Part shown: positions 10,460-43,337 of the stretch, piece by piece
How the letters are laid out: each line of letters begins with the position of its first letter
How positions within the stretch are numbered: the stretch's first letter is position 1
Origin: a virus
Strand: one strand, 5' to 3'
IMG/VR virus record: IMGVR_UViG_3300030329_004481
DNA length: 64,000 nt
Position numbers and translations under genes: made by a program
Notes under the pieces: generated by a model
The model's database searches: none
Told to the model about the DNA's origin: nothing
Seen by the model: only the letters and a program-made list of their open reading frames with translations

Positions 10460-10878
10460 GATGTTACTGTTATTTCTTTTATTTTATAAGGTTGTTGTAA
10501 GATCCAATCAATTATGCTAACCGCATAATCAACTGGCATTTTAGATACATTTTTATTTTTTTGACTTTCAGTATCTATATAACCAAAATTTACACAAGTT
10601 GTATGTATACCTTCAGTAAACAAATGGTGGTTTGCTTCTCTAAGAGATTTTTTTTCTATTGCGTATCTATAACGAAATGTATAATCACTAGCGTGTGATC
10701 CTATATTAATTATACGTTTATTTAACTCTGCGGCTTGGTATAATAATTCTACTTGTTCAAAACCATTGTGTTTACAATTAATAAAAATATCACAAGATTT
10801 TAAATTTTCACAATTTCCATACTTTTCAACAAGAGATTTTCCCAAACCCCTTCTTGTTCCTGTAATAAAATATTTCAT
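10456..10878 (-). CDS. Minimal short-chain dehydrogenase/reductase (SDR)
   Basis: ITGTRRGLG (TGxxxGxG), IFINC, IINIGS, YAIEK (YxxxK), NFGYIDT. Start moved to ATG 10878 (MKYFITG); 140 aa. Confidence 0.8.
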   Translation of the reverse strand: MKYFITGTRRGLGKSLVEKYGNCENLKSCDIFINCKHNGFEQVELLYQAAELNKRIINIGSHASDYTFRYRYAIEKKSLREANHHLFTEGIHTTCVNFGYIDTESQKNKNVSKMPVDYAVSIIDWILQQPYKIKEITVTS

Positions 10879-11906
10879 AAAAAGGTTTTGTCTCCCGGCC
10901 ATAATGGTAATTTGACTCCAGGTTTACGTTTGGGTATTTTACTATCAGCAGAACTTACACAAGCATCTGACAAACAAGGTTGCGGACTATCAAATAATTT
11001 AAATCCTGTTTCTATATTACCTAAAGGTAAATCTCTGCAAGAATAAGACCGCTTAATGCTCCCATCAGGCTCGCGGATAATGATACTGCGATGGCCAGAC
11101 GAACAATCCCACCCCCTGAAATTATTAAAATTAAACGCATTGAATCTTTCTGCTTGATCCATTTCATAAGTTTCACCTTTTGAGTCTATTAATTCTATTT
11201 CCATAGTTGGAGTTTTTGATTCATTATATAATATGTCTAATTGACTATCTGTGTATCCTTCTACTACTTTTGTGGCAGTTGGATTAGATTGTGGTTTCAA
11301 TGTTGTATGTATCCCCCTCTCTTTGAAATACAAAACATGATCACATAATTTAAAAAATCTTTCCGGAACCATAACCATATTTATTGTAATGCGAATACCA
11401 TTGTCTTGACAGAAAACTAATTTGTCAGCAAATTCTTCTATTTTCTTTTCTGTATTTAAATGTTCAAAATGTGCAGACGCAGTAATAGAAGCTCTGTCAA
11501 ATTGTTTTGCGTATTTTACATATGTCTCAAACCAACTCATTTTACGTGAGCAGTTTGATGTCATGTGAATTCTTTGTCTCTTACAATTAATATTATCATC
11601 AGCTAAATGTTGCAAAATATTTAAATATCCAGGATGAAAAGTGGGTTCTCCACCAGACAAAGACCAATTAAAACTATTAAACCCATTGTTTCTTGCTTGA
11701 CGTTTTATTTCATCTATGGTAGATAAACATAGTTCCGTAGGTCTATGATCTTTTTTATCTGACCTAGCATAAGGCCAACAGTATGTACATTTGTAATTAC
11801 AGAACCTGCCAAGTAACCATGACACAGTGAATGTATCATGATAAAGCATAGTTTTTGTTCCTACAAGTTCTATATCATTAAAAGGTATTTTTGTAAAGTC
11901 TAACAT
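10875..11906 (-). CDS. Radical SAM protein with C-terminal Twitch/SPASM-like Cys domain
   Basis: CNYKCTYC, LSGGEPT; C-terminal CSSG..IREPDG..SC..CLSDAC. Confidence 0.85.
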   Translation of the reverse strand: MLDFTKIPFNDIELVGTKTMLYHDTFTVSWLLGRFCNYKCTYCWPYARSDKKDHRPTELCLSTIDEIKRQARNNGFNSFNWSLSGGEPTFHPGYLNILQHLADDNINCKRQRIHMTSNCSRKMSWFETYVKYAKQFDRASITASAHFEHLNTEKKIEEFADKLVFCQDNGIRITINMVMVPERFFKLCDHVLYFKERGIHTTLKPQSNPTATKVVEGYTDSQLDILYNESKTPTMEIELIDSKGETYEMDQAERFNAFNFNNFRGWDCSSGHRSIIIREPDGSIKRSYSCRDLPLGNIETGFKLFDSPQPCLSDACVSSADSKIPKRKPGVKLPLWPGDKTFL

Positions 11907-13717
11907 ATTCTTTTTATTTTTAATAAATTTTTATGTGAATATTTTTCAATATCTATAACATTTGCAAATTTATTAAAAAAATTAACATAATAAGTTGGAT
12001 CACCTGAAAACCAATTCCTTTCACCTTCTGCAATACAGAATATAAATGTGCCATTTATTTTTAATAAATTTTTAAAAATTCTTTTTACTGTTTCTTCTAT
12101 ATAAAAAAAATCTTTAACTTCTTCATTTAAACCATTGAATAAATTTAATCCAACCGCATACATACTATCAAATTTTTCCAAAGGAGAATATGTATAAAGA
12201 TTTTCAACTAAAAAATTAGCTCCTTTAGAATTATTTCTAGCATACTCAATTGCTTTATCTGATAAATCTATTCCTGTCACATCTTTATATTTGTAATTAT
12301 CATATAAAAAATTAGTATGAATTCCCATGCCACAACCAAAATCTAAAAGTTTATCAGAACAATTCCATCCAGAAAATTTTTCAATTTTTGGAATATAATC
12401 TTTTGAATATTGTTTTAAACCTTCTATTTTGTTTTCTTTTGATAAATTTAAATCTGAACTTGGTCCCATATCACTTTTAAAAAACATTTCTTCATTTGCA
12501 TAATACTTGGTTTGATGAACATTGTATAAAGTAGATGGACAAACATGAGACAAATATCGATATTCTTTTCGATTTATCAACCAAGGACAAGCCGTTACCA
12601 AGTCTTCAGCATTAGGTTTAACAAAATCCGCTAATTTAGTAAAAGATAAAAAATCATAATAACTATCTTTATCTTGTTCCGCTTGTTTAAAACCTTCAGC
12701 TAATTTTAAAATTCCACTTTTTGTTGACCTTTTGTTTACAGGAATATTTTTTATTATTAAATCATGTGCTTTTTCTAAATGCTCTTTTGGTAAAACAGAA
12801 TAAGATAAGTATTTTGGAAAAGCAACTATATTTTTAAAATAACTATCTATACCTTGTTCTTCAAAATATTTAAATATTTTAACTGGTTCAAAAATATTAT
12901 AAGCCATCCATAAAGTAGTTATACTTAAATATATATTAAATACTTTTTTAAATTTTTTTATATTATCTAATACGTGTTCAATTGTAAAATTTTGTCCACC
13001 TCTAATATATTGATATAATACATGATCTAATGCTTCTAAACTAATTGATAAATTAACTTTTTTAAAACATTGAAATAAATTAATAAATTTTTCATTATAT
13101 ATTGTTCCATTTGTATGAATATCTAATATAACATTTTGTGTGTTTATATTTTTAATAATATAATTTAACAATTCAATATTTGCTGGTTCAGCAAAAGGTT
13201 CTCCACCTTTTATCGCAATAAATTCTATATTTGGGCATTTATTAATAATATCTTTTACTGTTTCTAAGTTATTAGCATTTTTTTTAAAAACATTTCCCTT
13301 ATCTTCATATTGTCTTGGAAACCCTCTATAATCTTTCCAGTTAAATTTTTCAAATATTTTTTCAGTTGGTATCCATGAAGTGCTGTAACTTCCACTACAC
13401 ATTTTACATTTTAAATTACAAATATTACTCATATCAATCTCCAACATACGAATATCCATTACATCATGAAATTCAATATGTTCAAAGGATTGATTGAGAA
13501 ATTTTCTACGACTCCATCCTACTTTATCTTCTTTTGTTTTACAACTTATACAATTATTATGAAATTTTCCATCTAATAAAGATTTCCTCAGAGATTCTGT
13601 CTGTTTCCAATATTCATCTAAATTTTTTGTAGGATTTGAATTCTTATACACAGGATCAGGTAATAAAGAACCATCCATATGAACAACTAAACTATTCCAA
13701 GGAGCTTTACAAAACAT
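11900..13717 (-). CDS. N-terminal Twitch radical SAM protein fused to a C-terminal class I SAM-dependent methyltransferase
   Basis: FCKAPW..CISC; CNLKCKMC; KGGEPF; HTNGT; then LLDFGCGMG, VTGIDLS, LLKINGTF. Confidence 0.82.
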   Translation of the reverse strand: MFCKAPWNSLVVHMDGSLLPDPVYKNSNPTKNLDEYWKQTESLRKSLLDGKFHNNCISCKTKEDKVGWSRRKFLNQSFEHIEFHDVMDIRMLEIDMSNICNLKCKMCSGSYSTSWIPTEKIFEKFNWKDYRGFPRQYEDKGNVFKKNANNLETVKDIINKCPNIEFIAIKGGEPFAEPANIELLNYIIKNINTQNVILDIHTNGTIYNEKFINLFQCFKKVNLSISLEALDHVLYQYIRGGQNFTIEHVLDNIKKFKKVFNIYLSITTLWMAYNIFEPVKIFKYFEEQGIDSYFKNIVAFPKYLSYSVLPKEHLEKAHDLIIKNIPVNKRSTKSGILKLAEGFKQAEQDKDSYYDFLSFTKLADFVKPNAEDLVTACPWLINRKEYRYLSHVCPSTLYNVHQTKYYANEEMFFKSDMGPSSDLNLSKENKIEGLKQYSKDYIPKIEKFSGWNCSDKLLDFGCGMGIHTNFLYDNYKYKDVTGIDLSDKAIEYARNNSKGANFLVENLYTYSPLEKFDSMYAVGLNLFNGLNEEVKDFFYIEETVKRIFKNLLKINGTFIFCIAEGERNWFSGDPTYYVNFFNKFANVIDIEKYSHKNLLKIKRIC

Positions 13718-14915
13718 TTTTTAATTCTATAAATTTGTCTAAATTGAAAGAAGAATCTATAGCTAAATTAAACTCATTAAAATCTACCATTGATGCTTTT
13801 TTATGATAAGATCCTTGACTCTCTCCATAATCTAAACTCAAATATTGTATTAGTGTTTTTCTTAATCTAGGATATCTTGTTTTGATATCATTTTTTTTAT
13901 ATTTTTTAATAAGATTATCTTTATACCTTTTTGGTAAAACATAAATTGTTAAAGGTTCTGGTGTAAGTACTCTATTTGATCCAATCCACGGCCATTCTTC
14001 ACAATCAGATTTAATATGACTAAATTGCTGAACATAATCAATATATTCCTCAAAAAAATGAATGTTCAACGCTTGCCAACATGGAGCAAAATGAATATCC
14101 CAATTTTTATTTTCTGTTATGAAAGAAAACCAAAGTCTGATAACATTATCAATTTTTTCCCAAGATACTCCTGGTCTTATGTATTCATTTAATTCACCAA
14201 TACCATCTATACTAAGTTTTATTACACCACCATTTGCTAACTTTAATTTTTCTATTATTTGATCATCTGGAAATATTGTTCCATTAGTATTATATTCAAA
14301 AAATATATTTTGAATCATATTTTTAGGCATTAATTGAATAAAAGAATTATGTTCTTTACTTATAAATGGTTCTCCTCCCATAATTTTTATATATTCCAAA
14401 TTAGTAAACATGGAAGGATCTTCAATTTCCATTTTCCATAAACCTTTATCTCCTGTATCTAAGGACCATTTTTTATTATATAAAGATGAAAATTTTCCCC
14501 AAACACTATTCCATTTTGTACTATAACTTGGACCACACATTCTGCAAGTTAAATTGCATTCATTTGAAAAAGATATATCAAGAGCTTTAATTTCAGATAA
14601 ACTTTGATTTATATTATAATTTTTTAATTCAAATTTATCATTCATAAAAATTCTATAACTATTAACACCCATCTTTTCTTTGTTTAAACAACGTTCACAT
14701 CCAGCTGGAATTTTCCCTTCTATCATTTCTTTTCTAATTTCTTTAAAATAATCAGAATTAAAACTATCAATTATAGAAGAATCTTCAACTCTAGGAACTT
14801 TTACATTATTTGATCTATTTTGTATTTTATTTTCAAATTCACAACATGGACCAAATACATGATTTTGAAACTGCTTTACATGAATAAATGGCATAACACA
14901 ATAAGGTTTAGTCAT
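13707..14915 (-). CDS. N-terminal Twitch domain radical SAM protein
   Basis: YCVMPF..PCC..CERC; CNLTCRMC; MGGEPF; NTNGT; LSIDG..EYIR. Confidence 0.87.
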   Translation of the reverse strand: MTKPYCVMPFIHVKQFQNHVFGPCCEFENKIQNRSNNVKVPRVEDSSIIDSFNSDYFKEIRKEMIEGKIPAGCERCLNKEKMGVNSYRIFMNDKFELKNYNINQSLSEIKALDISFSNECNLTCRMCGPSYSTKWNSVWGKFSSLYNKKWSLDTGDKGLWKMEIEDPSMFTNLEYIKIMGGEPFISKEHNSFIQLMPKNMIQNIFFEYNTNGTIFPDDQIIEKLKLANGGVIKLSIDGIGELNEYIRPGVSWEKIDNVIRLWFSFITENKNWDIHFAPCWQALNIHFFEEYIDYVQQFSHIKSDCEEWPWIGSNRVLTPEPLTIYVLPKRYKDNLIKKYKKNDIKTRYPRLRKTLIQYLSLDYGESQGSYHKKASMVDFNEFNLAIDSSFNLDKFIELKNVL

Positions 14916-15625
14916 ACTAAACTCCTATAACTATTGATAACCACTTTTTTAAAGATATTTATTTTTTTCTTAGACCATCCATGAATGATCATATGTATTC
15001 TATTTTCATTACTTTTGTTCCAAACTGCATGAGGAATTGAAATATTCATCATTCTTATTTGTCCTTCTTTCCAAGGAACAATACCATAATCTTCCATCCC
15101 CATAATACACCCTTCAGGATTATTTAATGATATATTAAAAGTTTGTAATCTATTTTCATCATCATCTTTATGTGGAAGAATATATCCATTAGGTTCTAAT
15201 AACATAAATCTAATTCTTAAAAAATCATCTAAGAATATTTTATTTTTTAAAAAATTTGTTGTTACAGGACATTGATCGCATATTTCTGTCCAATGATATT
15301 CTGGTAGATTATTTTCATATTGATCATCACCCAATGTATAATGTTTTCCTCTACCATGAATTGTTAAACTTTTCCATCCCTTATGTTTTTCATTATAAGA
15401 ATCTCTATGATAAACAAATTCATGCAATAAAGAATTTGCTTCATCATACATTTTTTTGTATGGTATATCAAAATGAAGATGTAATGTAGCAAGATTTGAT
15501 TTATGAATTATCCATGAAAATTTATCACTTGATTCTAAATTTCTATAATGATTTTCAAGATTCCTATACGCAAAGAAGTTTGAGAGAATTTTTTGAGTGT
15601 TCATAATAATCCTTTCTCCATTCAA
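14912..15625 (-). CDS. Asp/Asn beta-hydroxylase-like Fe(II)/2OG oxygenase
   Basis: GWKSLTIHG; RIRFMLLEPNGYILPHKD; NISIPHAVWNKSNENRIHMIIHG. Confidence 0.85.
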   Translation of the reverse strand: MNGERIIMNTQKILSNFFAYRNLENHYRNLESSDKFSWIIHKSNLATLHLHFDIPYKKMYDEANSLLHEFVYHRDSYNEKHKGWKSLTIHGRGKHYTLGDDQYENNLPEYHWTEICDQCPVTTNFLKNKIFLDDFLRIRFMLLEPNGYILPHKDDDENRLQTFNISLNNPEGCIMGMEDYGIVPWKEGQIRMMNISIPHAVWNKSNENRIHMIIHGWSKKKINIFKKVVINSYRSLV

Positions 15626-16907
15626 AATTAAAATCTTTATCTAAATTGGTATCAATATCATTCATAGAAATTAAATACGAACCAGTTCCATATTTTCGAC
15701 TTAAAGAAAGTTCTCCATAAAAATAACTATTATTTTTTTTGAATTGCTGTTGATCAAATACAATTTTTTTAAGTAAAACATTATAATCAATTTGACTATA
15801 AAAATATGATGTATCAACATAATGAAAAATATTACTAAAATAAATTAAAATATTTTTAGTTGTTTGTGTATATTTTTTTAAAAGATTATAATTTGTCAAA
15901 CTACTAAGGGAATAATTAACATGACTTAACTTTCTTATTTTATTTTTTAAATTATCCCATTTCATAGTTTTATTAAAAAAATCTAATGCATATTCATTCA
16001 TAATATCTTCATCATTTTCTATTAATTCTATACTATTATTTAAAGATTTAAATATATTACAAAAATCTGAATACTTTTGTTTTTCAGGATTAAAATCACT
16101 AATTAATAATTTTGTAAATTCAATAGCACGTTGTTGAATATCAACAAATCGCACGGTTTTTAAATTTTTACATTTATCTATAATAGCCAATGCTTGCAAT
16201 CCATTTGCAGGAGTAATTAAATGTTCAACGTGTGAAAGATCAAAAGAAAATAATGGTTCTGTCGCAACATTATATATCATTTGTGTTTCAGACAAAAAAT
16301 GAACCAAGTTCCAAAATGGTACAATATCAGAATTCAATATTATTGGTTCTCTAATAGATTTTTTCCTTGAAATACTGCTCTCAAAATTATTCCATGGTCT
16401 TTTTTTAGAATTATTACTTTTTAAATTATAAATAAAAAATTTTGATTTTTTGTCTCCAATTATCCTATAATTTAATTCATTTTGTTCTTGTTCTGAAAAC
16501 CTCCTTAAAAAATTTTGAATATCTAATAAACATCCTAAAGGAATAAAAACAACAAAATCAACTTCTTTTAAATTTAATGAATATTTTTCATCATTATATC
16601 CTTGTAAATAACCATGTGATTCATCAGAAAAATTTGAAGAAAGATTATCATATTCATTATTAAAAAAATTTAAACTATTCCACGCATCTTCAAAATTTAA
16701 AAAATATCTATAATCTAAATTTTCAAAAGTTAAATAATCAAAAATATTATATGAAAAATTTTTATAATAAGTGTTTTGTTTATCATTGTCTATTAAATAT
16801 ATTAAAAACTTTATATTTGACTTAATGCCATGTGTGTTTTTAAACAATGTCCTATGATGATTTTCCCAAAGCTTTCTTTCTTTTATGGGTATATTCCAAC
16901 TATTCAT
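15564..16907 (-). CDS. Hypothetical protein, possible degenerate Rossmann/methyltransferase-like C-terminal domain
   Basis: 447 aa, extremely AT-rich; LITPANGL..VRFVDI..IYFSNIF follows the order of MTase motifs I/II/IV (weak). Confidence 0.35.
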   Translation of the reverse strand: MNSWNIPIKERKLWENHHRTLFKNTHGIKSNIKFLIYLIDNDKQNTYYKNFSYNIFDYLTFENLDYRYFLNFEDAWNSLNFFNNEYDNLSSNFSDESHGYLQGYNDEKYSLNLKEVDFVVFIPLGCLLDIQNFLRRFSEQEQNELNYRIIGDKKSKFFIYNLKSNNSKKRPWNNFESSISRKKSIREPIILNSDIVPFWNLVHFLSETQMIYNVATEPLFSFDLSHVEHLITPANGLQALAIIDKCKNLKTVRFVDIQQRAIEFTKLLISDFNPEKQKYSDFCNIFKSLNNSIELIENDEDIMNEYALDFFNKTMKWDNLKNKIRKLSHVNYSLSSLTNYNLLKKYTQTTKNILIYFSNIFHYVDTSYFYSQIDYNVLLKKIVFDQQQFKKNNSYFYGELSLSRKYGTGSYLISMNDIDTNLDKDFNFEWRKDYYEHSKNSLKLLCV

Positions 16908-16913
16908 ATAATC

Positions 16914-18029
16914 TTAATTTCTATGATATATTGGTTTAGAAATATTAATCATTAATCCTGCTTTAGATTTTACCTTATCTAAATTGCTACTTATGTGTAT
17001 TTGATTTGAATCTTGACAAATAATATCACCACCTCTCCATCTAAAGGTTTCATCTTCTCTAAATCCAAACAAAGTTCCTAATGTAATATGTCTCCATCTT
17101 TGCTTATTAATATCTTCACAAAAATGAAATTTATTTAAACTGTCTTCAAGATTATCATTGTCTAAATCATAAAAAAACTCCTTTGGCCGTGATGCTAATT
17201 TTTTATATCTGCCAGTTATAATATTACCATAAATTGAAACATTGGTTTCTTTAATTGAAGAAAATTTCGATATCACTTTATCATTTTCTAAACAAGACTT
17301 ACATAATTTATAATTTATATTTCCTTGAGCATTTACTAATTTAGTTTTTTTATTTTTACAATAAACACAAAATCCTTCAGAATCTTCTGTTAATATATCT
17401 TCTTGTTTTTCTTTTAGTAATTCAAACATAACATCTCCCATGGTTTGACCAAAACCATATACCCGCTCTTTCATTGTAGTATAATATAAATTATAGGGTG
17501 GTTGCTTTAAACCCATTGAAAATAAAGGAATAATTAATGATTTATAAGGAATTATGTATTTTATTTTTGGATTATTTTTTAACTTTTTCATATAATCTTG
17601 ATGATAATAATAGTCATGATGTAAATCATACCCTCTTATTGTCCAATAAAAATTTCCGCTTACAAAATCATTTTCAGAATCATAAAAAGGAATTACGTCT
17701 TTTAAATTGTTCCAAAAATGAGAAACAAAGTTTTTATAGTCATGAGTAAGAAAAAATACTATATCCTTTTCACTAAAATGTGCATTTCCTCCATGCTTAT
17801 TGGGTCTTCTTGAATGATAATTTTTTAACAACCAATCAATCATATTATCTACAGTATCTTCAGATAATATATTTTCATATATTTTGGGGGGAGAATTATG
17901 CAAACAAAAAATATCGAAAGGTGCAAGAAATTTTCTATCTGCATACATTTCTTTTGTGCTTACATCATCTGAAACAAAATAACCACGATTTTTTTCTTTT
18001 TTTGAATATGGAGAATTTTCAATAATCAT
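16914..18029 (-). CDS. Divergent Fe(II)/2OG-type oxygenase with CxxC-CxxC insert
   Basis: YDLHHD..SLIIPL..WRGGDIICQDSNQIHISSN..K; insert CVYC..CKSC. Start moved to ATG 18029 (preceded by GGAAAGG). Confidence 0.55.
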   Translation of the reverse strand: MIIENSPYSKKEKNRGYFVSDDVSTKEMYADRKFLAPFDIFCLHNSPPKIYENILSEDTVDNMIDWLLKNYHSRRPNKHGGNAHFSEKDIVFFLTHDYKNFVSHFWNNLKDVIPFYDSENDFVSGNFYWTIRGYDLHHDYYYHQDYMKKLKNNPKIKYIIPYKSLIIPLFSMGLKQPPYNLYYTTMKERVYGFGQTMGDVMFELLKEKQEDILTEDSEGFCVYCKNKKTKLVNAQGNINYKLCKSCLENDKVISKFSSIKETNVSIYGNIITGRYKKLASRPKEFFYDLDNDNLEDSLNKFHFCEDINKQRWRHITLGTLFGFREDETFRWRGGDIICQDSNQIHISSNLDKVKSKAGLMINISKPIYHRN

Positions 18030-19266
18030 AATAACCTTTCCACATTGGAAATACCTTTTCAAAATCATGTGATCTTAAATTATCAAGTTGTTTACCATAA
18101 TCAACAAAATCTTTAAAAAGTTTTATGTAATTTGGATCATCAACATTCATAAGATTGATCATTTGCCTTAACCTATCTTTTATTTGATCACTATAATTAT
18201 ATATTAACAAATAATTATTTAATTTTTCTGTAATTATTTTTTTAAGATTATTTGGTATAATGCTTGGATTAAAATAATGAGGAACGTGTACAGGATCAAG
18301 ATGAACAAAAATTTTTTCAGTTTTACACCATTCTAGTAATTCAGGAAGATAACCAATGTTTTGATTACTCACCGCAGTATTTAAAGCAAAATGAACTGAT
18401 GGATGATCATAAAATATTTCATTTATTTTAATCGCATTTGAACTTGTTAATTTCCATTTACTAGGTGGTCGTAAAAATTCATTTTGTTTTCCATAACCAT
18501 CAATACTTCCTAATAATGATACATGCTTAAATTTAGAAATTAAATATAAAAAATCATCTCTAACATTTTTTAAATTAGTATTAATTCTTAAAGAAACGTT
18601 TTTAGCATGATCTTTATCAACAAAAAATTTCAAAATATCAAAATATTCTTGTAATATCATTGGTTCACCGCCACTAACTTCCATATGTTCTATTACAGAA
18701 TAATTTTTTTTAATTAAATGAATAATTTCAGGATTTGATTTTACCCATTGAAATTTTAACTCATCATATCCATCATATTCCATTTGTAAATAATCAGTTA
18801 ATGTTTCTCCATTTTCAACTAGTTTAAAAATGTCTTTAGCTAACTGATTACTTGCACCAATCCAACACGTCCTACATTTTAAATTACATAAATTTCCAAA
18901 ATGTAAATCAAAACTTATAGGAAAATGATCAACTCTGCCATTTTGTTCAATAGCTTTATCAACTATATGTTTATAATTTTCATAAGGATATTTTTCATTC
19001 TCAGAAATTCTTTTTGATCTACCTCCCGCATTTTCTTCATCATAACATCTTTTGCAAGCTGGTACAAATTTCCCATTGAATAAATCTATTCTAGTTTGTT
19101 TAATATATGGATTGTTCCATACATTTTCAAATGTATCATTGTAAAATCCTTTTGTATATAGTCTATGGTCTTCTAATTTAGTAGTGCTTTTACAACAATT
19201 TCTTATTTGACCTTTGTTCTGTGTTGCTAATATTAAAAAAGGTGCAATACAAAATTTATTTTTCAT
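18019..19266 (-). CDS. N-terminal Twitch domain radical SAM protein
   Basis: FCIAPF..NCC..CKRC; CNLKCRTC; SGGEPM; NTNL; SIDG..EFLRPP. Confidence 0.87.
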   Translation of the reverse strand: MKNKFCIAPFLILATQNKGQIRNCCKSTTKLEDHRLYTKGFYNDTFENVWNNPYIKQTRIDLFNGKFVPACKRCYDEENAGGRSKRISENEKYPYENYKHIVDKAIEQNGRVDHFPISFDLHFGNLCNLKCRTCWIGASNQLAKDIFKLVENGETLTDYLQMEYDGYDELKFQWVKSNPEIIHLIKKNYSVIEHMEVSGGEPMILQEYFDILKFFVDKDHAKNVSLRINTNLKNVRDDFLYLISKFKHVSLLGSIDGYGKQNEFLRPPSKWKLTSSNAIKINEIFYDHPSVHFALNTAVSNQNIGYLPELLEWCKTEKIFVHLDPVHVPHYFNPSIIPNNLKKIITEKLNNYLLIYNYSDQIKDRLRQMINLMNVDDPNYIKLFKDFVDYGKQLDNLRSHDFEKVFPMWKGYYDY

Positions 19267-20137
19267 TATATAATTCTTTGATTGGTTTTCTTATATTAAT
19301 TCTATAATAATTAGATTTATCTCTCCTATATGCTTTCCAATCATTTTCATTACCCAAACCAATATGCATTGTATTTGTAGGATTTATTTTTATCTTTTCA
19401 CAAACTTCCAATTGCATAAATTTATAAGTCAAAGGAATTGTATCTGGACTAAAATTTTTCATTAACTCTAACCCTATGAATGTATTCAAATGTATTCCAT
19501 GTTTCCAATCAGTTTGTAATCCCAAACCACATTCTTTTGAATTGGTAAATAAAATACCATTTCTATAATTGCCACAATTCAATCCTTTAGTTGTACTAAA
19601 GGTTGCACCTATTATACAATCATGATTAAAATCAAATTCCAATCTTTCACAAGTCCCAAACCAAGCACAATCAATCAATACTTCCACATTTCTTCTATCA
19701 CAAATATTTAATAAATTAAATAAATCTTCAGGGTAAGATCCATTTCCGCTAAAAGGAATACTTATTATTAAAGTATCTTGATCTGTAAGATCATTATAAT
19801 CTACAATGAAATCATTATTATAATCAAAATCTGTGACGTCCCTATTATATGGATATTCGCCATGCAACAATCTTAATTTTTTATTTTTTAATTTTGTATA
19901 ATAATGAAACCAATCTAATGCTTGTGTTGTTCCTAAACTTATAAATCTTCTTTTAAATTTTTTCAATCCAAAAAAGTTATTTAATTTACTTGATCTGACC
20001 CAATCAATAAAAAAATTTAAATATTCATCTTGTACAATTGGTTGTTCTTTTAACCATTTTGATACACATTCAGATTCCTCCAAATATCCATAAAATTCAC
20101 TGTGTGAAATTGAATTACCTGACTTTTCTAATTTCAT
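19256..20137 (-). CDS. Minimal PLP-dependent fold-type I enzyme (aminotransferase/lyase-like)
   Basis: GTTQA, GEYPY, ISIPFSGNG, LIDCAWFG, FSTTKGL..YRNG. Confidence 0.72.
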   Translation of the reverse strand: MKLEKSGNSISHSEFYGYLEESECVSKWLKEQPIVQDEYLNFFIDWVRSSKLNNFFGLKKFKRRFISLGTTQALDWFHYYTKLKNKKLRLLHGEYPYNRDVTDFDYNNDFIVDYNDLTDQDTLIISIPFSGNGSYPEDLFNLLNICDRRNVEVLIDCAWFGTCERLEFDFNHDCIIGATFSTTKGLNCGNYRNGILFTNSKECGLGLQTDWKHGIHLNTFIGLELMKNFSPDTIPLTYKFMQLEVCEKIKINPTNTMHIGLGNENDWKAYRRDKSNYYRINIRKPIKELYNEK

Positions 20138-21254
20138 CTAAAATCTTTGTTTTTTCTATAAATTTATCATACAAATGTGACCAATCTTCATCAATATATT
20201 TTAACAATCCTTCAACCTTTGGTTTGTGTATATAAGGTTCTAATATTTTTTTAACTTTTAATTTTTGTTCATAAGGTAATACTCTTACATTCAAATAGTC
20301 TGGATGATTTAATATATTCAAATAAGGATCTATATTATATTGATCAAAATAATTAAATATTTCAGGTAGATGCATAATATTATGAATTTGTACTGTTGTG
20401 TGAACTTGTAAAGACACATTCATGTCAATAAATGATTTTAATTGTTTTTCAATATTTTTCCAATTTGAAGGATATCTAATATAATCATTAATTTTTCCTA
20501 TACCATCTATTGAGGCATTCATTTTTATTTTTTTAAAATGTTTCCAATATTCAATCATCTTTCGAGGAATATTTGTCAGATTTGAATTATATTTCAATGT
20601 TATATTTTTAGCCAATCCTTTATCTATACATATATCAAATAATTTATATTGTTCAACTGCTAATGTTGGTTCTCCACCAGTAAGATAAATCATTTTAACT
20701 GTATTTAAAATTGGAATTAAATTTTTCCATGTTGAAGGATCATTTGGCCAATCCATTTTTGATAAACGTATTTTTTCATTTGGATCGTTCCAATTTTCAA
20801 TCAATTCCCAATCTTTCACCCATTGATTACTTGCATAAGGATTGCACATAATACATTTAAGGTTACATAGATTACCTAATCTCAAATCCACATATGTTAT
20901 ATTTAAATCAGGACTAACAGTTTTTTGATATTCAAACATCCATTGCTCATTCCACGCATTTCTCGCACTTCTTAATCCTGAATCTTCTTCCCTAAAACAC
21001 CTCTCACACATTTCTGGACGTTCATTATTTAAAAATTGTTTTCTTATTTTTTGATATGTTTCTGAATTCCAAACTTCTTTTATATCATCTTTATACACTT
21101 TATACGGAGTGCCGTCATGTTTTAAAATGAAATTTTTTCCTGGAGTGCTATTACAACACACTCTATAATTTCCTGATGAATTTGTTGCCAAATGCATCCA
21201 AGGCAATATACAAAAATTATTTGGATATATTTTTTTCAACATCCACAAATCCAT
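20115..21254 (-). CDS. N-terminal Twitch domain radical SAM protein
   Basis: FCILPWMH..RVCC..CERC; CNLKCIMC; TGGEPT; SIDG..DYIRYPSNW. Confidence 0.9.
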   Translation of the reverse strand: MDLWMLKKIYPNNFCILPWMHLATNSSGNYRVCCNSTPGKNFILKHDGTPYKVYKDDIKEVWNSETYQKIRKQFLNNERPEMCERCFREEDSGLRSARNAWNEQWMFEYQKTVSPDLNITYVDLRLGNLCNLKCIMCNPYASNQWVKDWELIENWNDPNEKIRLSKMDWPNDPSTWKNLIPILNTVKMIYLTGGEPTLAVEQYKLFDICIDKGLAKNITLKYNSNLTNIPRKMIEYWKHFKKIKMNASIDGIGKINDYIRYPSNWKNIEKQLKSFIDMNVSLQVHTTVQIHNIMHLPEIFNYFDQYNIDPYLNILNHPDYLNVRVLPYEQKLKVKKILEPYIHKPKVEGLLKYIDEDWSHLYDKFIEKTKILDEIRKVR

Positions 21255-21942
21255 ATTCTAATATTGATTGTATAGATTTATTATAACAACTAAAAAAATG
21301 AGGTGCTTTTCTCCACGCAAATGATTCTGGATCAATTAACAACAATTTATCATTATCTAAACAAAGAACATTTTGTTCTGCAATATCATTATGAAAAAAA
21401 TAAAATGTTTCTAAATTATCATGAAACTGGTCAATTGGTTCTTGATTAATAAAAACTAATCTTTCATATGTACCTAGATATGGATATTTAAAATATTTAA
21501 ACATATCAACATACCAACTTGTAAATTCATTCATTACGTAAAGAAAAAATTCTTTATGTTCTTTTTCATTATCCAACATTGATACTAATTTATCATCCAA
21601 TTGCATAAAATTATCATGTTTTTCTAAAACTATTAAAAAAAGATCTGGATCTTTAAAAAGAGGAAAATGACCGTGAACTTTCACCAAAAAATTAAATTTT
21701 TCAGATACTTCTTTATATTCATTATATTCTTCAGATGGAAAATCTTTAACAATTTTTAAAAAATAATTATCATATTGAGTTACATCAACAACTTGATTCA
21801 CTTTATTGAAAATATCTTCAATTGAATATTTACTTGTATTTTGAATATTATCATGAAAAATAGTTGCAGAATAAATGATATCTTTTTGTGCTTTATTCAT
21901 TTCAACATAATAATCCATAATATTCTTTCGGCAATATATCAA
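21217..21942 (-). CDS. APH/choline-kinase-like phosphotransferase (true start possibly 21918)
   Basis: YFLKIV (ATP-binding Lys), FHNDIAEQNVL (Brenner HxDxxxxN), LLIDPE. Confidence 0.7.
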   Translation of the reverse strand: MIYCRKNIMDYYVEMNKAQKDIIYSATIFHDNIQNTSKYSIEDIFNKVNQVVDVTQYDNYFLKIVKDFPSEEYNEYKEVSEKFNFLVKVHGHFPLFKDPDLFLIVLEKHDNFMQLDDKLVSMLDNEKEHKEFFLYVMNEFTSWYVDMFKYFKYPYLGTYERLVFINQEPIDQFHDNLETFYFFHNDIAEQNVLCLDNDKLLLIDPESFAWRKAPHFFSCYNKSIQSILEYGFVDVEKNISK

Positions 21943-23311
21943 TAATTTTAATTCCTGTATGATTTTCTCTAACTTTTATGTAATTCCAAAATTGTTGTTT
22001 ATATTTCCACTCCACATATTTTTTTGAATTTTTTAATAAAGTTATAATATCTAAGTATTCTTGCATACATAGATTTTTAAAACTAACAGATTCAACTTTA
22101 TTAAAAATATCAAACGCTTTTGATTCAAGAAAATCAATTAAAAATTCTTTAGTTTGTTTATCTAAATATTCAACATTTAAAAATTCATTATCACCAATAC
22201 ATTGATTTAATGATATTCCAGGAGCTGAGTCCTTATATTTTTCATTATATTTTTCAATAAGTTTTATTATCCATTTTACAAAATCTGGTAAGGTCATTAT
22301 GTTTATTGTTGAATATGCTGAATTAAAATGTAAATTAAAATTTCTCCATTTTCCGAATTCATAATCATTACCATTAAATTGATAATTTTCAATTATGTAA
22401 TTAACATTTCTATCAATCAGGTTCCAATTTCCCGGCCATCTTGTAAAATTATAAGTTCCGCCATACCCATCAAGACTAGCTGAAATTTCTGCAGTTTCAA
22501 ATTTTGAAAGTATGTTAAGTTTTTTTCTTGAAATTTTTGTCAAATTACTACAAAAAGATAATTTAATATTTTTGGACAATTTTTTTTCAATAAGGTCTTC
22601 AAATTTTTTCCATAAAGAATTGATTATAAATGGTTCTCCGCCTGTTGAATATAAGTGTCTTATATTTGAATCCATTGAATCTAAACTTTTTAAAAAAACA
22701 TCGCTATCAGTCCAAGAAATTTCTTTTGATTTTGAATTTAATTTATTAACAGTATTTAATTTTTTAAGTGACTCATCACTAAAAACTGACTCATTTCCCA
22801 ATTCAATTTGTTTATTCATATAATTTTGTAAACTAGTACTATTGAGAGGATGACACATAATGCATGATAAATTACATTTTGCACTCAATTTTATATCCAA
22901 ATAATATGGCAAATCACTTACATTATAATTTTCCATTGATTCCACACGTCGTTTTACAAGATTGCCATTACCATCATCAATAATTTGAATTAAATTTTGA
23001 TTTTGTCTATAACTTACAGTTTTTCCATTTTTTTCTTCTCTATAGCATTCACTACAATTAATTACCTTTTTACCATTCATCATATCTTTTCTAATGCTTT
23101 TCATATGATCACTATTCCATACTTCTTCTACACTATGAATTGAGGTATGTGTTTCTTGACCATCATTTGAAAAAATTGGATGTTCTGCTTTACAACACAA
23201 TTTATAAAATCCACTAGTATCAGTAGATATGTGTATCCAAGGAAAAACACAAAATGTATCAGTATTTTTAATAAATTTTTTCAAAAATTTTTCTGTTTTC
23301 TCTACTTTCAT
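21902..23311 (-). CDS. N-terminal Twitch domain radical SAM protein
   Basis: FCVFPWIH..LCC..CSEC; CNLSCIMC; TGGEPF; SLDG..NFTRWP. Confidence 0.88.
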   Translation of the reverse strand: MKVEKTEKFLKKFIKNTDTFCVFPWIHISTDTSGFYKLCCKAEHPIFSNDGQETHTSIHSVEEVWNSDHMKSIRKDMMNGKKVINCSECYREEKNGKTVSYRQNQNLIQIIDDGNGNLVKRRVESMENYNVSDLPYYLDIKLSAKCNLSCIMCHPLNSTSLQNYMNKQIELGNESVFSDESLKKLNTVNKLNSKSKEISWTDSDVFLKSLDSMDSNIRHLYSTGGEPFIINSLWKKFEDLIEKKLSKNIKLSFCSNLTKISRKKLNILSKFETAEISASLDGYGGTYNFTRWPGNWNLIDRNVNYIIENYQFNGNDYEFGKWRNFNLHFNSAYSTINIMTLPDFVKWIIKLIEKYNEKYKDSAPGISLNQCIGDNEFLNVEYLDKQTKEFLIDFLESKAFDIFNKVESVSFKNLCMQEYLDIITLLKNSKKYVEWKYKQQFWNYIKVRENHTGIKIIDILPKEYYGLLC

Positions 23312-24709
23312 CTATAACAAACCTTTCATTTCAGGAAAAGTCTCTTTAAAATTAGTACCACGAATTCTATCCATAATTGTAATATATTCTACAAATTCGA
23401 CCATTCTATTTGACCAATTTTCTGATTTCATAAATGTTATCAATCCTTTAAGTCCTTTTAATCCATAGTTTGCATTTTTCCATTCATCAAAAGATACCTT
23501 ACCTTTATACCAAGATGGAATGCCTTTTTCCCAATTATTCTTCCACCACCCATAAAAATCAACATATTTTAAATGACAATCATCTTTAAACCATTGAGGT
23601 AAAATTTTTACATTTAATTGTGGTGGATGATATACAAAATGATAATTAATAGCACCAGCTCCAAATGGCCACATATTGATTTTTTTAAATCCTTCATCTA
23701 ATTTCCATTTTATAAAATCTGGTATATAATATATGTTCAATGCTTGAACTGCACACGCAAGAGTAACTTCAACATTATCATCTGTATTATCAAGTAGATG
23801 CATTTGTTTTACTTGATGATCCCATTTACTAGGATATCTTATATAATCATTCATAACACCAATAGAATCAATACTGTAATGAAATCTTACACGTTTAAAT
23901 TTATCCCATAATTTAAACAATCTGTCTGGCATTTCAACGCCATTACTATTGTATCTCAATTCAATTTGTTCAGCATATCCCATTTCAATTACTTTTTCAA
24001 GTAAAGTATAATGTTCTTCTATTATAGTACTTTCACCACCAGCAAAGTATAATTGATAAATGTTGGGTATCTGGCCATATAAATCATCCCAAAACTTAGG
24101 ATTATTTTTATACCAATTATATGAAGCACCATGTTCATCTTTACCACCACCATGCCATTGTGCTGTATATTTTAATGATTCACTTTTTACTTGTGGATAA
24201 TATTCTTTCCAATCTGAAACCCATGCTGAAGAATCATGTGGACTGCACATAATACATTTTAAATTACATTTAGAACCTAAACGTAAATCAATATATCTAA
24301 TTTTTGGTGGAATTTCACCATCCTCTTTTGTTTCACTTAAAATATCATCTAAACTAAATCTTTCTAACCAATATCTAGTTTCCCATGTTCTTTTTGATAA
24401 ATGTCCCGCATCTTCTTCTTTAAAACATTTCATACAACTATTGGGTCTTTCTCCCGCAAGCATTTGTTTTCTTACATTCTTCATATAAGAATTATTCCAA
24501 GATTCATTTAATCCTGCTACATTTAAATTAGCAGGTTTACCATCTTCTGTACGAAGTTCACCAACCTTGCCTCCATGTTGTTTATAATCAGTCTTTCCTA
24601 CAGAAGATGCGTTTGCGGTACAACAAACCCTCATTGCTCCATCAGGCCTTGTACTAAGGTGCATCCATGGCAATGCACAAAAAGTTTCACTTGGTAATTT
24701 TATTGCCAT
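23312..24709 (-). CDS. N-terminal Twitch domain radical SAM protein
   Basis: FCALPWMH..RVCC..CMKC; CNLKCIMC; AGGES; NSNG; SIDS..DYIRYPSKW. Confidence 0.9.
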   Translation of the reverse strand: MAIKLPSETFCALPWMHLSTRPDGAMRVCCTANASSVGKTDYKQHGGKVGELRTEDGKPANLNVAGLNESWNNSYMKNVRKQMLAGERPNSCMKCFKEEDAGHLSKRTWETRYWLERFSLDDILSETKEDGEIPPKIRYIDLRLGSKCNLKCIMCSPHDSSAWVSDWKEYYPQVKSESLKYTAQWHGGGKDEHGASYNWYKNNPKFWDDLYGQIPNIYQLYFAGGESTIIEEHYTLLEKVIEMGYAEQIELRYNSNGVEMPDRLFKLWDKFKRVRFHYSIDSIGVMNDYIRYPSKWDHQVKQMHLLDNTDDNVEVTLACAVQALNIYYIPDFIKWKLDEGFKKINMWPFGAGAINYHFVYHPPQLNVKILPQWFKDDCHLKYVDFYGWWKNNWEKGIPSWYKGKVSFDEWKNANYGLKGLKGLITFMKSENWSNRMVEFVEYITIMDRIRGTNFKETFPEMKGLL

Positions 24710-26512: not shown

Positions 26513-27026
26513 ATTAAAATACAATACACCAAAAGAAATACATTATCTTATTGATTGGTCATGCAATGATAACAACAGATTGATAACAAAAAACTTATAT
26601 GAAACAATAATAAATTTTTATAATGATGAAAGAATTAATTTTTTATGTAGTTGGTTTTGTGGATTAGAATATGAACATTTTGATAAGATGGGATTCGATT
26701 GCCATTATTATGATGTTGATGAATATGTTTGTAAAGCTAATAAAGAATTAACAAATAAAGTCTATAATGTTGATGTAATTTTTGATGAAGTTAAAATTGA
26801 AGAAGGATTATATGTAAACAAATTTTGTGAAGACACATATCCTATCGGAAAAATTTATAAAGGTGAATTTGTCTTAATAGGATCAGACAATGATCATTTA
26901 GCATGTATAAATCAAATACATAATATAGATACATTAATAGAACAAAATGAATTGACCAAAATTTATTCTACAAAAACATTTAAAGGTTTATTTAACTATT
27001 ACATGGTGGCAGGATGCAATTTATAA
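26505..27026 (+). CDS. Hypothetical protein, degenerate methyltransferase-like (paralog of 27014..27742)
   Basis: FLCSWF..YYDVD..VNKFCED..CINQI..NEL aligns by eye with IIGGWF..FYEID..INTSCEH..HINCV..NEI of the next gene. Start moved to ATG 26505. Confidence 0.45.
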   Translation: MFELKYNTPKEIHYLIDWSCNDNNRLITKNLYETIINFYNDERINFLCSWFCGLEYEHFDKMGFDCHYYDVDEYVCKANKELTNKVYNVDVIFDEVKIEEGLYVNKFCEDTYPIGKIYKGEFVLIGSDNDHLACINQIHNIDTLIEQNELTKIYSTKTFKGLFNYYMVAGCNL

Positions 27027-43296: not shown

Positions 43297-43329
43297 TAAT
43301 TACTCCTAATTATAATAAATCTTTATGTT

Positions 43330-43337
43330 TATTTATG
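43330..43337 (-). promoter_or_regulatory. Putative T4-type late promoter (CATAAATA) upstream of gp8
   Basis: NATAAATA ~33 nt upstream of the ATG, followed by SD AGGAG (43303-43307). Confidence 0.6.

What the first reader, a model, noticed from the sequence alone, without database searches (positions are those of the whole stretch)
11900..24709. Six paralogous radical SAM enzymes with an inverted (N-terminal Twitch) architecture
Seen: ORFs 11900, 13707, 18019, 20115, 21902 and 23312 share FCxxP(W/F)..G..CC..CxxC..E..G..S.R before CNLxCxxC, then GGE, N(T/S)N and S(I/L)DG..Y(I)R. Known: SPASM/Twitch auxiliary Fe-S domains are normally C-terminal and typify peptide and protein maturases such as anSME and PqqE. 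From memory, an N-terminal-Twitch family of unknown function is recognised mainly from uncultured aquatic organisms. Inference: six diverged copies in one phage locus suggest site- or substrate-specific parallel reactions, and give this family a genomic context (late phage morphogenesis).
Basis: partly seen in the sequence, partly recalled or inferred. Interest (0 to 1): 0.8.

Follow-up and report, generated by a model that had tools for sequence, protein, structure and literature searches.

The report
Six N-terminal-Twitch radical SAM genes in phage
A marine T4-like phage carries six old, intact copies of a catalogued but never-studied iron-sulfur "radical SAM" enzyme family inside a ten-radical-SAM tailoring operon next to its tail genes. 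The same enzyme core occurs in predatory Bdellovibrio-type bacteria, so it probably edits a sugar-like molecule rather than the tail fibres.

Summary
All six minus-strand ORFs score above the curated cut-off of NCBIfam NF033640 (N_Twi_rSAM, 203-422 bits against 170). Their N-terminal region matches the Twitch domain of BtrN. One copy (11900) lacks the second Twitch cysteine and carries a C-terminal methyltransferase.

The copies are not recent duplicates. They are 22-31% identical to each other, none is sister to another in two trees, and four have their own orthologue in a syntenic Tara phage contig, with a partial fifth (dN/dS 0.08-0.35).

Arrays like this are normal for the family. Sampled large IMG/VR phages carry 10-15 copies, Bdellovibrionota genomes 1-12, and about 10,000 cluster representatives exist.

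The 23312 copy and two conventional radical SAMs (24700, 10875) form a trio that is 40-65% identical in Bdellovibrionota chromosomes. There it sits among GT2 glycosyltransferases and methyltransferases.

My best reading (about 0.45) is stepwise radical tailoring of a sugar-type scaffold. Protein or peptide maturation (about 0.25) is not excluded.

This scan has reported the same kind of island on at least 16 other genomes. The enzymes are new members of a known but uncharacterised family.

The parts
23312..24709 (-). N-Twi radical SAM, the most conserved subfamily ('23312-type'), 465 aa
   Evidence: NF033640 422.3 bits. More than 4000 homologue clusters, the best 120 listed being 62-89% identical. 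85% identical orthologue in L004, dN/dS 0.10. 54-66% identical in most cellular hits, mainly Bdellovibrionota.
21902..23311 (-). N-Twi radical SAM, 469 aa
   Evidence: NF033640 259.5 bits. 44% identical orthologue in L004, dN/dS 0.35.
20115..21254 (-). N-Twi radical SAM, compact form, 379 aa
   Evidence: NF033640 373.5 bits and Pfam SPASM at residues 15-86. AF2 model pLDDT 95.5, pTM 0.92. 84% identical orthologue in L004, dN/dS 0.08.
18019..19266 (-). N-Twi radical SAM, 415 aa
   Evidence: NF033640 325.4 bits. 87% identical orthologue in L004, dN/dS 0.08.
13707..14915 (-). N-Twi radical SAM, 402 aa
   Evidence: NF033640 254.8 bits. 64% identical partial orthologue at the end of L004. ATAAATA motif 41 nt upstream of its start.
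11900..13717 (-). N-Twi radical SAM (three-Cys Twitch variant) fused to a C-terminal class I SAM methyltransferase, 605 aa
   Evidence: NF033640 202.8 bits at residues 2-367, and Methyltransf_25/31/11 at residues 437-562. The second Twitch Cys is replaced, as in most of its listed IMG/VR subfamily relatives.
24700..25770 (-). Partner radical SAM with a conventional C-terminal Twitch-like Cys motif ('24700-type')
   Evidence: Weak Pfam Radical_SAM hit. CQAACLQC motif, then C-x15-G-x4-CC ... CxxxC near the C-terminus. Homologues in 62 IMG/VR and 45 Bdellovibrionota loci, adjacent to the 23312-type gene.
10875..11906 (-). Partner radical SAM ('10875-type', CNYKCTYC)
   Evidence: Radical_SAM 51.9 bits. 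50-61% identical in Bdellovibrionota, where it lies next to the other two core genes.
19256..20137 (-). PLP-enzyme-like protein (class I/II aminotransferase fold) between two N-Twi genes
   Evidence: Atlas structural match TM 0.86-0.94 to aminotransferase-named viral clusters. Invariant D-x-A, FS-x-x-K and R motifs. Best PDB hit is aminotransferase 3if2, E 0.088, aligned on the same motifs. Its homologue is fused to a radical SAM domain in L006.
14912..16907 (-). AspH-like oxygenase (14912-15625) plus unknown 447-aa protein (15564-16907)
   Evidence: Asp_Arg_Hydrox E 2.3e-20. The two genes are one 703-aa ORF in L004.
16914..18068 (-). Unknown 384-aa protein inside the array
   Evidence: No usable Pfam, PHROG or PDB match. 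61% identical orthologue in L004, dN/dS 0.21.
21217..21942 (-). Unknown 241-aa protein inside the array
   Evidence: No family match. Only 26-28% identical to its positional counterpart in L004, dN/dS about 0.9.
25769..29331 (+). Divergent six-gene cassette: two weakly GT-like genes, one MTase-like gene and one 2OG-Fe(II) oxygenase
   Evidence: phrog_1962 glycosyltransferase E 9e-5 (25769) and 6e-4 (27736). 27014 resembles class I methyltransferase clusters in the Atlas, score 0.97, with homologues in 47 IMG/VR and 20 Bdellovibrionota loci. 2OG-FeII_Oxy_3 for 28879.
2047..10459 (-). Downstream part of the same operon: two B12-binding radical SAMs (2047, 8642), AspH-like genes and a sulfotransferase-like gene
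   Evidence: B12-binding plus Radical_SAM; Asp_Arg_Hydrox hits for 3596, 4200, 4771 and 5249; Sulfotransfer_2 for 8071.

Best explanation
Shown: the six genes are intact, anciently diverged members of the NF033640 family. In this family a one-cluster Twitch domain (ligands C...C, CxxC) precedes the CX3CX2C/GGE radical SAM core. They lie in one tightly overlapping minus-strand operon with four more radical SAM genes, a PLP-fold enzyme, AspH-like oxygenases, methyltransferase domains and sulfotransferase-like genes. The operon sits in the host-recognition region of a T4-like marine myovirus.

Inferred: each copy cleaves SAM to a 5'-deoxyadenosyl radical and abstracts one specific hydrogen from a shared scaffold. 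The N-terminal auxiliary [4Fe-4S] cluster takes up or returns the electron, as it does in the twitch/SPASM enzymes BtrN and anSME. The outcome would be alcohol-to-ketone oxidation, epimerisation or a C-C/C-X bond.

The scaffold is most likely a sugar, nucleotide-sugar or glycan rather than a protein. The conserved trio (23312-type N-Twi, 24700-type, 10875-type) would make a common modified unit. The more variable N-Twi paralogues, the PLP enzyme (ketone to amine), the methyltransferases, the oxygenases and the sulfotransferases would then decorate it. The product would sit on the infected cell or on the virion.
For: Family membership and motifs. Twitch homology to BtrN, a sugar-type (aminocyclitol) dehydrogenase. 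The top fold matches include the nucleoside-sugar enzyme BlsE (Foldseek rank 1, E 3e-7; VIA Z 12.4) as well as anSME (Z 13.1).

Each copy is conserved separately and under purifying selection.

The trio is kept at 40-65% identity between this phage and Bdellovibrionota chromosomes. Both partner genes lie near the 23312-type gene in 30 of 41 fully flanked loci. Such conservation across hosts argues for an invariant small substrate.

Bdellovibrionota neighbours: 11 of 137 are GT2, and there are also methyltransferase, SIS and GNAT genes. Viral neighbours include UDP-glucose/GDP-mannose dehydrogenase (3 of 124 neighbour proteins), a carbamoyltransferase and an aminotransferase.

In the window: a PLP-fold gene between N-Twi genes, which is fused to a radical SAM domain in L006; a methyltransferase fusion; a carbohydrate-type sulfotransferase hit; and weak GT-like hits.

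No precursor-like small ORF array occurs in the window or in 154 of the 156 loci examined.
Against: No member of the family has been characterised, so the chemistry and the substrate are inferred from context only. GT evidence inside this window is weak (E 9e-5 and 6e-4), and no GT family reached the 25 commonest families in the viral neighbour sample. The nearest radical SAM cores by sequence are peptide maturases (TigE 8.5e-17, SkfB 2.2e-14). AspH-family enzymes can hydroxylate proteins. In one megaphage the 23312 orthologue lies directly downstream of about 26 tandem Gly-rich small ORFs. Most neighbours have no family assignment at all.
Confidence: 0.45

Rival explanations
1. Protein or peptide maturation. 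The N-Twi enzymes would install crosslinks, epimerisations or C-methyl-type changes on virion fibre or baseplate proteins encoded next door, or on small secreted peptides in the manner of RiPPs. The AspH-like oxygenases would hydroxylate Asp/Asn of the same targets.
For: The island lies in the structural and host-recognition module, beside fibre-like genes. The best sequence matches of the core are the RiPP maturases TigE, SkfB and CteB, and the protein maturase anSME is the best fold match. In the 457-kb IMG/VR phage contig (L001 = L078 record), the 64% identical orthologue of 23312 follows about 26 tandem small ORFs. These share a leader (MNISIKLNYIK...) and have Gly/Asp/Tyr-repeat cores that often end in GC[ED]. 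The PF05118 family includes protein hydroxylases.
Against: No RRE/PqqD-type leader-binding domain was detected. No Gly-rich or repeated small ORFs occur in the window or in any of the 70 cellular loci. The peptide array is confined to one lineage, 2 of the 156 loci examined. The trio is 40-65% identical in Bdellovibrionota chromosomes, which lack phage fibre genes and instead carry GT2 and methyltransferase neighbours.
Confidence: 0.25
2. Tailoring of a lipid, of lipid A, or of another non-sugar small molecule (a nucleotide or cofactor-like compound). The radical SAMs would work on acyl chains or on a heterocycle.
For: LpxO, a lipid A acyl-chain hydroxylase, is placed in the AspH-like Pfam family (from general knowledge, not tested here). 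A fatty-acid desaturase lies in the related island L006. CMAS, enoyl-CoA hydratase and carboxyl transferase are among the Bdellovibrionota neighbours. The lipid enzyme GDGT-MAS is among the PDB hits (E 4.6e-9; Z 10.7). QueC-like genes recur nearby: 2 of 137 and 2 of 124 neighbours, and beside the KVP40 pair. Viperin and MoaA, which act on nucleotides, are also among the hits.
Against: All these links are weak or occasional. No lipid-synthesis core and no complete deazapurine gene set was seen in the window. GT2 and nucleotide-sugar dehydrogenase neighbours are more frequent.
Confidence: 0.15
3. The copies are redundant or decaying duplicates with no separate roles.
For: Pairwise identity is low (22-27%). 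One copy has lost a Twitch cysteine.
Against: All six keep CX3CX2C, GGE and the other invariant positions. All six reading frames are intact. The five copies with an orthologue in L004 show dN/dS of 0.08-0.35. The three-Cys state is a stable trait of a whole subfamily.
Confidence: 0.02

Closest known systems
NCBIfam NF033640, N_Twi_rSAM (twitch domain-containing radical SAM protein)
   Same: All six ORFs score above the curated cut-off over nearly the whole model. They share the N-terminal Twitch Cys motif followed by CX3CX2C and GGE.
   Different: Nothing structural, so they are members. The family has no assigned function. One copy (11900) is a three-Cys variant fused to a methyltransferase.
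BtrN, twitch radical SAM 2-deoxy-scyllo-inosamine dehydrogenase (PDB 4M7S/4M7T)
   Same: Its Twitch domain (residues 164-237) is the PDB match for the N-terminal 75 residues of the family profile (E 1.4e-6). Both bind one auxiliary cluster. A PLP enzyme is encoded beside the N-Twi genes, which recalls the oxidise-then-transaminate logic of butirosin biosynthesis (general knowledge).
   Different: The domain order is permuted: N-terminal here, C-terminal in BtrN. The cores match only weakly (Z 6.1 over 120 residues). No aminocyclitol pathway genes were identified. The PLP protein is a short class I/II-fold form whose relation to BtrS was not tested.
SPASM/twitch peptide and protein maturases (anSME 4K36, SkfB 6EFN, CteB 5WGG, TigE 8VPO)
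   Same: These are the best matches for the radical SAM core: TigE E 8.5e-17 and SkfB 2.2e-14 by profile; anSME Z 13.1, SkfB Z 12.1 and CteB Z 11.7 by structure.
   Different: Their auxiliary domain is C-terminal and mostly binds two clusters, and the RiPP enzymes have an N-terminal leader-binding domain. Here there is one cluster, it is N-terminal, no RRE was detected and no precursor gene is present in the window.
Sugar and nucleoside radical SAMs BlsE (7VOB) and DesII (8HZV)
   Same: BlsE is the top Foldseek hit (E 3.1e-7) with VIA Z 12.4. The context is sugar-related.
   Different: Sequence identity is 13-20%. NCBIfam rSAM_BlsE scores 16 bits against a cut-off of 400. The domain order differs.
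Radical SAM cassettes in the host recognition cluster of pelagimyophages (Zaragoza-Solas et al. 2020, PMC7029224)
   Same: The paper places these cassettes in the hypervariable region of the structural module of SAR11-type T4-like phages, between the VrlC gene and gp14. The baseplate protein gp6 of this phage is 36-38% identical to those of Pelagibacter and Methylophilales myophages.
   Different: [quoted passage not shown] This phage is a distant relative.
Eight radical SAM genes in the structural cluster of Aeromonas phage vB_AerVM_332-Vera (PMC12390700)
   Same: A cultured giant phage in which many radical SAM genes lie among baseplate and fibre genes. The authors call this 'highly unusual'.
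   Different: I did not compare its sequences. It did not appear in either protein search of the phage collection, and I did not check whether that collection holds it.

Membership tests
NCBIfam NF033640 N_Twi_rSAM | Whole-protein HMM score at or above the curated cut-off of 170 bits | tested here: met
   202.8, 254.8, 325.4, 373.5, 259.5 and 422.3 bits for 11900, 13707, 18019, 20115, 21902 and 23312.
NCBIfam NF033640 N_Twi_rSAM | Twitch-type auxiliary-cluster Cys motif (C-x(n)-G-x4-C ... CxxC) lying N-terminal to the CX3CX2C motif | tested here: met
   Present in five copies. Copy 11900 keeps three of the four Cys. Family-wide, C15, C83 and C86 are invariant and C33 is nearly invariant. Profile positions 4-76 match the BtrN Twitch domain.
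NCBIfam NF033640 N_Twi_rSAM | Canonical radical SAM core (CX3CX2C, GGE SAM-binding motif, partial TIM barrel) | tested here: met
   Invariant in all six copies. The AF2 model has pLDDT 95.5, and its core aligns to anSME, BlsE and SkfB at Z 12-13.
SPASM domain radical SAMs (TIGR04085 / PF13186 type, two auxiliary clusters) | C-terminal seven-Cys domain that binds two auxiliary [4Fe-4S] clusters | tested here: not met
   Only four conserved Cys, and they are N-terminal. No CX2CX5CX3C motif follows the CxxC. PF13186 matches residues 11-95 of two copies only.
BtrN-type twitch dehydrogenases | C-terminal Twitch domain, and activity on an aminocyclitol within a 2-deoxystreptamine gene cluster | tested here: not met
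   The Twitch domain is homologous but N-terminal. The core match is weak (Z 6.1). No 2-deoxystreptamine pathway genes were found. Activity cannot be tested with these tools.
RiPP radical SAM maturases | Precursor peptide gene(s) encoded nearby | tested here: not met
   No Gly-rich or repeated small ORFs in the window. An array exists only next to the orthologue in one megaphage lineage.
RiPP radical SAM maturases | RRE/PqqD-like leader-binding domain | tested here: inconclusive
   No such Pfam or NCBIfam hit at E <= 0.01. A divergent RRE, or one supplied by another protein, cannot be excluded.
Cofactor radical SAMs MoaA / NirJ / PqqE / mycofactocin MftC | Equivalog HMM score at or above the curated cut-off | tested here: not met
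   MoaA 33 bits or less against 284; NirJ 29 or less against 515; MftC 31 or less against 265. No PqqE model appears among the hits at E <= 0.01.
Anaerobic sulfatase maturase (anSME, TIGR03942) | Equivalog HMM score at or above 349 bits | tested here: not met
   TIGR03942 is absent from the hits of the six copies and appears only for 10875, at 18.8 bits. The structural core similarity of Z 13.1 shows kinship of fold only.

The most novel reading that the evidence does not exclude
The N-Twi arrays and their two conventional radical SAM partners constitute an undescribed, oxygen-independent, radical-based pathway. It would be shared by large aquatic phages, predatory Bdellovibrionota and some CPR bacteria. 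The conserved three-enzyme core would make a new modified building block, and lineage-specific N-Twi paralogues would diversify it, giving a hypervariable surface decoration used when attacking or exploiting Gram-negative cells. A sharper variant takes its cue from the megaphage locus: the 23312-type enzyme acts on Gly/Tyr-rich repeat peptides, and the whole system is a new class of peptide-modifying enzymes.
Probability: 0.3. Interest if true: 0.8.

Novelty: new member of a known kind. Interest (0 to 1): 0.6.

Why it matters
NF033640 is a very large family: 10,125 cluster representatives at E <= 1e-30. I could find no member with a known reaction, substrate or structure. Phages that devote 20 kb or more of their host-recognition region to ten radical SAM enzymes are presumably making something important for infection. 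The same core in predatory bacteria suggests a shared chemistry of cell-surface or metabolite modification. Working it out would assign function to thousands of genes and could reveal new radical chemistry. It would also explain part of the hypervariable islands of abundant marine myoviruses. Full-length homologues in cultured phages (KVP40, K566) and in a Bdellovibrio isolate make this testable.

Tried and rejected
(1) Looked for the rest of this phage. No whole genome is held for the window, and an exact 47-mer was not found in IMG/VR. The part of the island left of the window could therefore not be checked.

(2) The first AF2 model, of 23312 with 12 close homologues, was poor (pLDDT 66) and its Foldseek matches were not significant. 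It was replaced by a model of 20115 built with 115 diverse sequences.

(3) Fold searches could not separate sugar-acting from peptide-acting relatives: anSME, BlsE, SkfB, viperin and CteB are tied at Z 11.7-13.1.

(4) Rosetta-stone attempt on long Bdellovibrionota fusions (ORFs of 1495, 869 and 716 aa). The two searched against PDB gave no match, and the database search of the 1495-aa ORF's extra region returned only itself and one homologue without Pfam domains.

(5) Single-sequence PDB searches for 10875, 24700, 15564 and 16914 gave nothing usable.

(6) Literature searches for N-terminal twitch/SPASM, NF033640, and radical SAM arrays in phages found no description of the family's function. 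They found only passing mentions.

(7) Recent in-place duplication was considered and rejected.

Full report
**What is there.** The window is AT-rich (24-35% G+C). Between about 2047 and 25770 it holds one long run of overlapping minus-strand genes.

Each ORF has a Pfam Radical_SAM domain that begins only after residue ~95-145. Two of them (20115 and 23312) also give a SPASM-type hit at residues 11-95. All six score above the curated cut-off of NCBIfam NF033640, 'twitch domain-containing radical SAM protein' (203-422 bits against 170, E 9e-60 to 2e-126). Cofactor and maturase equivalogs (MoaA, NirJ, MftC, ScfB and others) reach 40 bits or less against cut-offs of 265-855.

The six-way alignment shows these invariant positions: the first Cys and Pro of FCxxP, CxxC, Glu, CNLxCxxC, GGE, Asn, Ser and Arg. 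In an alignment of 115 diverse family members the invariant positions are three Twitch cysteines, the three radical SAM cysteines, GGE, one Asn and one Arg. A fourth Twitch Cys is nearly invariant.

A profile of that alignment matches BtrN residues 164-237, which is its Twitch domain, with profile positions 4-76 (E 1.4e-6).

One correction is needed. Copy 11900 lacks the CC pair and has P-D-P there instead. It also carries a class I methyltransferase domain at residues 437-562. Most of its listed IMG/VR relatives have the same Cys-to-Asp state, so this is a stable variant and not decay.

**The host element.** ORFs at 41542-61448 match the T4-type baseplate wedge, hub, tail and tube-cap PHROGs. 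The gp6 homologue is 36-38% identical to those of Methylophilales phage Melnitz and Pelagibacter myophages. The window is therefore from a distant relative of the pelagimyophage group.

[quoted passage not shown] No further analysis is given (PMC7029224).

TATAAATA and ATAAATA are strongly depleted in the window (4 against 17 expected, and 23 against 61). Minus-strand ATAAATA copies lie just upstream of several structural genes. One lies 41 nt upstream of 13707 and another 236 nt upstream of 24700. This hints at late transcription of the island but does not show it.

**The island around the six genes.** The same operon holds four more radical SAMs:
- two with B12-binding domains (2047 and 8642);
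- two with conventional C-terminal Twitch-like Cys motifs (24700 and 10875).

It also holds at least six AspH-family oxygenase genes, two sulfotransferase-like genes and several genes of unknown family.

Gene 19256, which lies between two N-Twi genes, has a class I/II aminotransferase fold. The Atlas gives TM 0.86-0.94. The D-x-A, FS-x-x-K and R motifs are invariant, and the best PDB hit is an aminotransferase aligned on those motifs, though only at E 0.088.

A divergent plus-strand cassette at 25769-29331 contains two weakly GT-like genes, one methyltransferase-like gene and a 2OG oxygenase.

**Origin of the six copies.** A Tara Oceans contig (L004) is syntenic with the window. Four copies have their own orthologue there at 44-87% identity, and a fifth (13707) has a partial one at 64%. 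The copies are only 22-31% identical to one another.

In a FastTree of 198 family members the six window copies need six separate origins. An IQ-TREE of 56 sequences again makes no two of them sisters. Four pair with their L004 orthologue at 99-100% support, and 11900 falls in a clade of IMG/VR sequences.

Nei-Gojobori dN/dS against L004 is 0.08-0.10 for 23312, 20115 and 18019, 0.27 for 13707 and 0.35 for 21902. dS is near saturation, so these values are approximate. The copies are old subfamilies maintained by selection and not recent duplicates.

**How unusual the array is.** It is not unusual for this family.
- Five large IMG/VR phage records (127-457 kb) carry 10-15 copies each.
- More than 566 IMG/VR stretches encode relatives.
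- Five cellular genomes carry 3-12 copies, often in tandem.
- 26 of 121 sampled Bdellovibrionota genomes have 1-11 copies.
- A profile search of 1.84 billion representatives finds 10,125 at E <= 1e-30, and many of the top hits are tandem double fusions.
- Full-length homologues also exist in cultured phages: a pair in Vibrio phage KVP40 (KVP40.0260/0261) and three in Vibrio phage K566. These were scored with a local HMM only.

**What the genes do.** The strongest clue is a conserved trio. The 23312-type gene has thousands of close homologues (the best 120 listed are 62-89% identical). In reference genomes it is found mainly in Bdellovibrionota chromosomes, mostly at 54-66% identity, including a cultured Bdellovibrio isolate and contigs of 2-3 Mb.

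There it lies next to homologues of 24700 (40-46% identical) and 10875 (50-61% identical). Both partners are present in 30 of 41 fully flanked loci.

The other neighbours in 12 sampled Bdellovibrionota loci are further radical SAMs (25 of 137), GT2 glycosyltransferases (11 of 137), methyltransferases, SIS-domain proteins and GNAT proteins. In ten IMG/VR loci they are further radical SAMs (25 of 124), AspH-like proteins, UDP-glucose/GDP-mannose dehydrogenases, a carbamoyltransferase and an aminotransferase. Most of the rest have no family.

The PLP-fold gene is fused to a radical SAM domain in a related phage, L006. The unknown 15564 is fused to the AspH-like gene in L004.

An enzyme core kept at 40-65% identity between phages and free-living predators, beside sugar-handling genes and far from any virion gene, argues for a small invariant substrate. 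That substrate is most simply a sugar, nucleotide-sugar or glycan unit.

Twitch enzymes with known sugar-type substrates (BtrN, and BlsE as the top Foldseek hit) give a precedent for radical oxidation, or decarboxylation in the case of BlsE, with an auxiliary cluster nearby. The step from this context to the actual chemistry is inference.

**The main rival.** The nearest radical SAM cores by sequence are peptide maturases (TigE, SkfB, CteB). The island sits beside fibre genes.

In one 457-kb IMG/VR phage the 64% identical orthologue of 23312 follows about 26 tandem small ORFs. These have a shared leader and Gly/Asp/Tyr-repeat cores that often end in GC[ED].

Against this reading, the window has no such ORFs. 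Only that one lineage, among the 156 loci examined, has them. No leader-binding domain was detected. The Bdellovibrionota context lacks phage proteins.

I put the sugar-type reading at about 0.45, protein or peptide maturation at about 0.25, and a lipid or other small-molecule target at about 0.15.

**Structure.** With 115 diverse sequences, AlphaFold2 gives a confident model of 20115 (pLDDT 95.5, pTM 0.92). The core (residues ~115-358) aligns to anSME (Z 13.1), BlsE (12.4), SkfB (12.1), viperin (11.7) and CteB (11.7). These matches are tied and do not resolve the substrate class.

**Verdict.** The finding is real and well described. The enzymes are new members of a catalogued but functionally unknown family, in an arrangement that is typical for that family in large phages and Bdellovibrionota.

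The idea of parallel site-specific reactions is compatible with the evidence.

Earlier notes of this scan report the same kind of island on at least 16 other genomes, with the same provisional reading. I reached the Bdellovibrionota link and the trio before reading them. What this report contributes for this window is the megaphage peptide array, the three-Cys subfamily, the dN/dS values, the family size and the cultured-phage homologues.

Noticed in passing
L001:1-7578 (+), same 457-kb IMG/VR record as L078: About 26 tandem small ORFs (46-101 aa) lie directly upstream of the 64% identical orthologue of 23312. Many share a leader (MNISIKLNYIK.WSH..) and have Gly/Asp/Tyr/Asn repeat cores that often end in GC[ED]. 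The array looks like a RiPP precursor array. It was found in only this lineage among the 156 loci examined.
   Followed up: partly
window 24700-25770 (-) and 10875-11906 (-): Both partner radical SAMs carry a conventional C-terminal C-x(13-15)-G-x(4-8)-C ... CxxxC / Cx4C motif. The C-terminal residues 263-321 of 24700 align to the Twitch part (positions 15-56) of the N-Twi profile. The same operon therefore encodes the auxiliary domain at both ends of the radical SAM core, which suggests a circular-permutation relationship.
   Followed up: partly
window 25768-25771: The start codons of the divergent genes 24700..25770 (-) and 25769..26512 (+) overlap as CATG, so there is no intergenic promoter region. 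The nearest late-promoter-like ATAAATA on the minus strand is at 26006-26012, inside the plus-strand gene.
   Followed up: partly
whole window: TATAAATA (4 found, 17 expected) and ATAAATA (23 found, 61 expected) are strongly depleted. Minus-strand copies lie 34-50 nt upstream of the starts of structural genes at 43296 and 61448, and directly upstream of the one at 49247. This is as expected if the motif is a functional T4-type late promoter.
   Followed up: partly
window 2047-3609 (-) and 8642-10459 (-): There are two B12-binding-domain radical SAMs of different subtypes. The second is closest to KedN5-type C-methyltransferases (160 bits, below the cut-off). They imply that the host supplies cobalamin, although the phage's nearest relatives infect SAR11/OM43-type bacteria.
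   Followed up: no
window 330-8102 and 14912-15625: At least six AspH-family (PF05118) oxygenase genes are present, four of them contiguous at 3596-6151. Three more small genes without a Pfam hit continue the run to 8102; one of them (6148) resembles 4200 by BLAST.
   Followed up: no
L160 (Vibrio phage KVP40, NC_005083.2 135055-137161): The cultured T4-like vibriophage KVP40 encodes a convergent pair of full-length N-Twi-type radical SAMs (KVP40.0260 and 0261; 131 and 145 bits with a local family HMM). They lie beside a QueC-like gene, a PF04095 protein and nadV. QueC-like genes also recur among neighbours in Bdellovibrionota and IMG/VR loci.
   Followed up: partly
L004:17816-19927 and L006:12740-14887: Two gene fusions occur in related phages. 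The unknown 15564 and AspH-like 14912 form one 703-aa ORF in L004. A 19256-type PLP-fold domain and a radical SAM domain form one 715-aa ORF in L006.
   Followed up: partly
L110:9959-12550; proteins P0123-P0150: Tandem double N-Twi fusions of about 770-1400 aa are common: all of the 29 best-scoring family representatives match the profile in two or more stretches. A Halobacteriovorax MAG has an N-Twi domain followed by about 1045 aa with no detectable homology.
   Followed up: partly
L065 (Parcubacteria MAG, 1.27-Mb contig, G005 835-846 kb): Seven N-Twi genes lie in tandem in a candidate-phyla-radiation genome. The family's carriers seen here (phages, Bdellovibrionota, this CPR genome) all live at the expense of other bacteria.
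   Followed up: no
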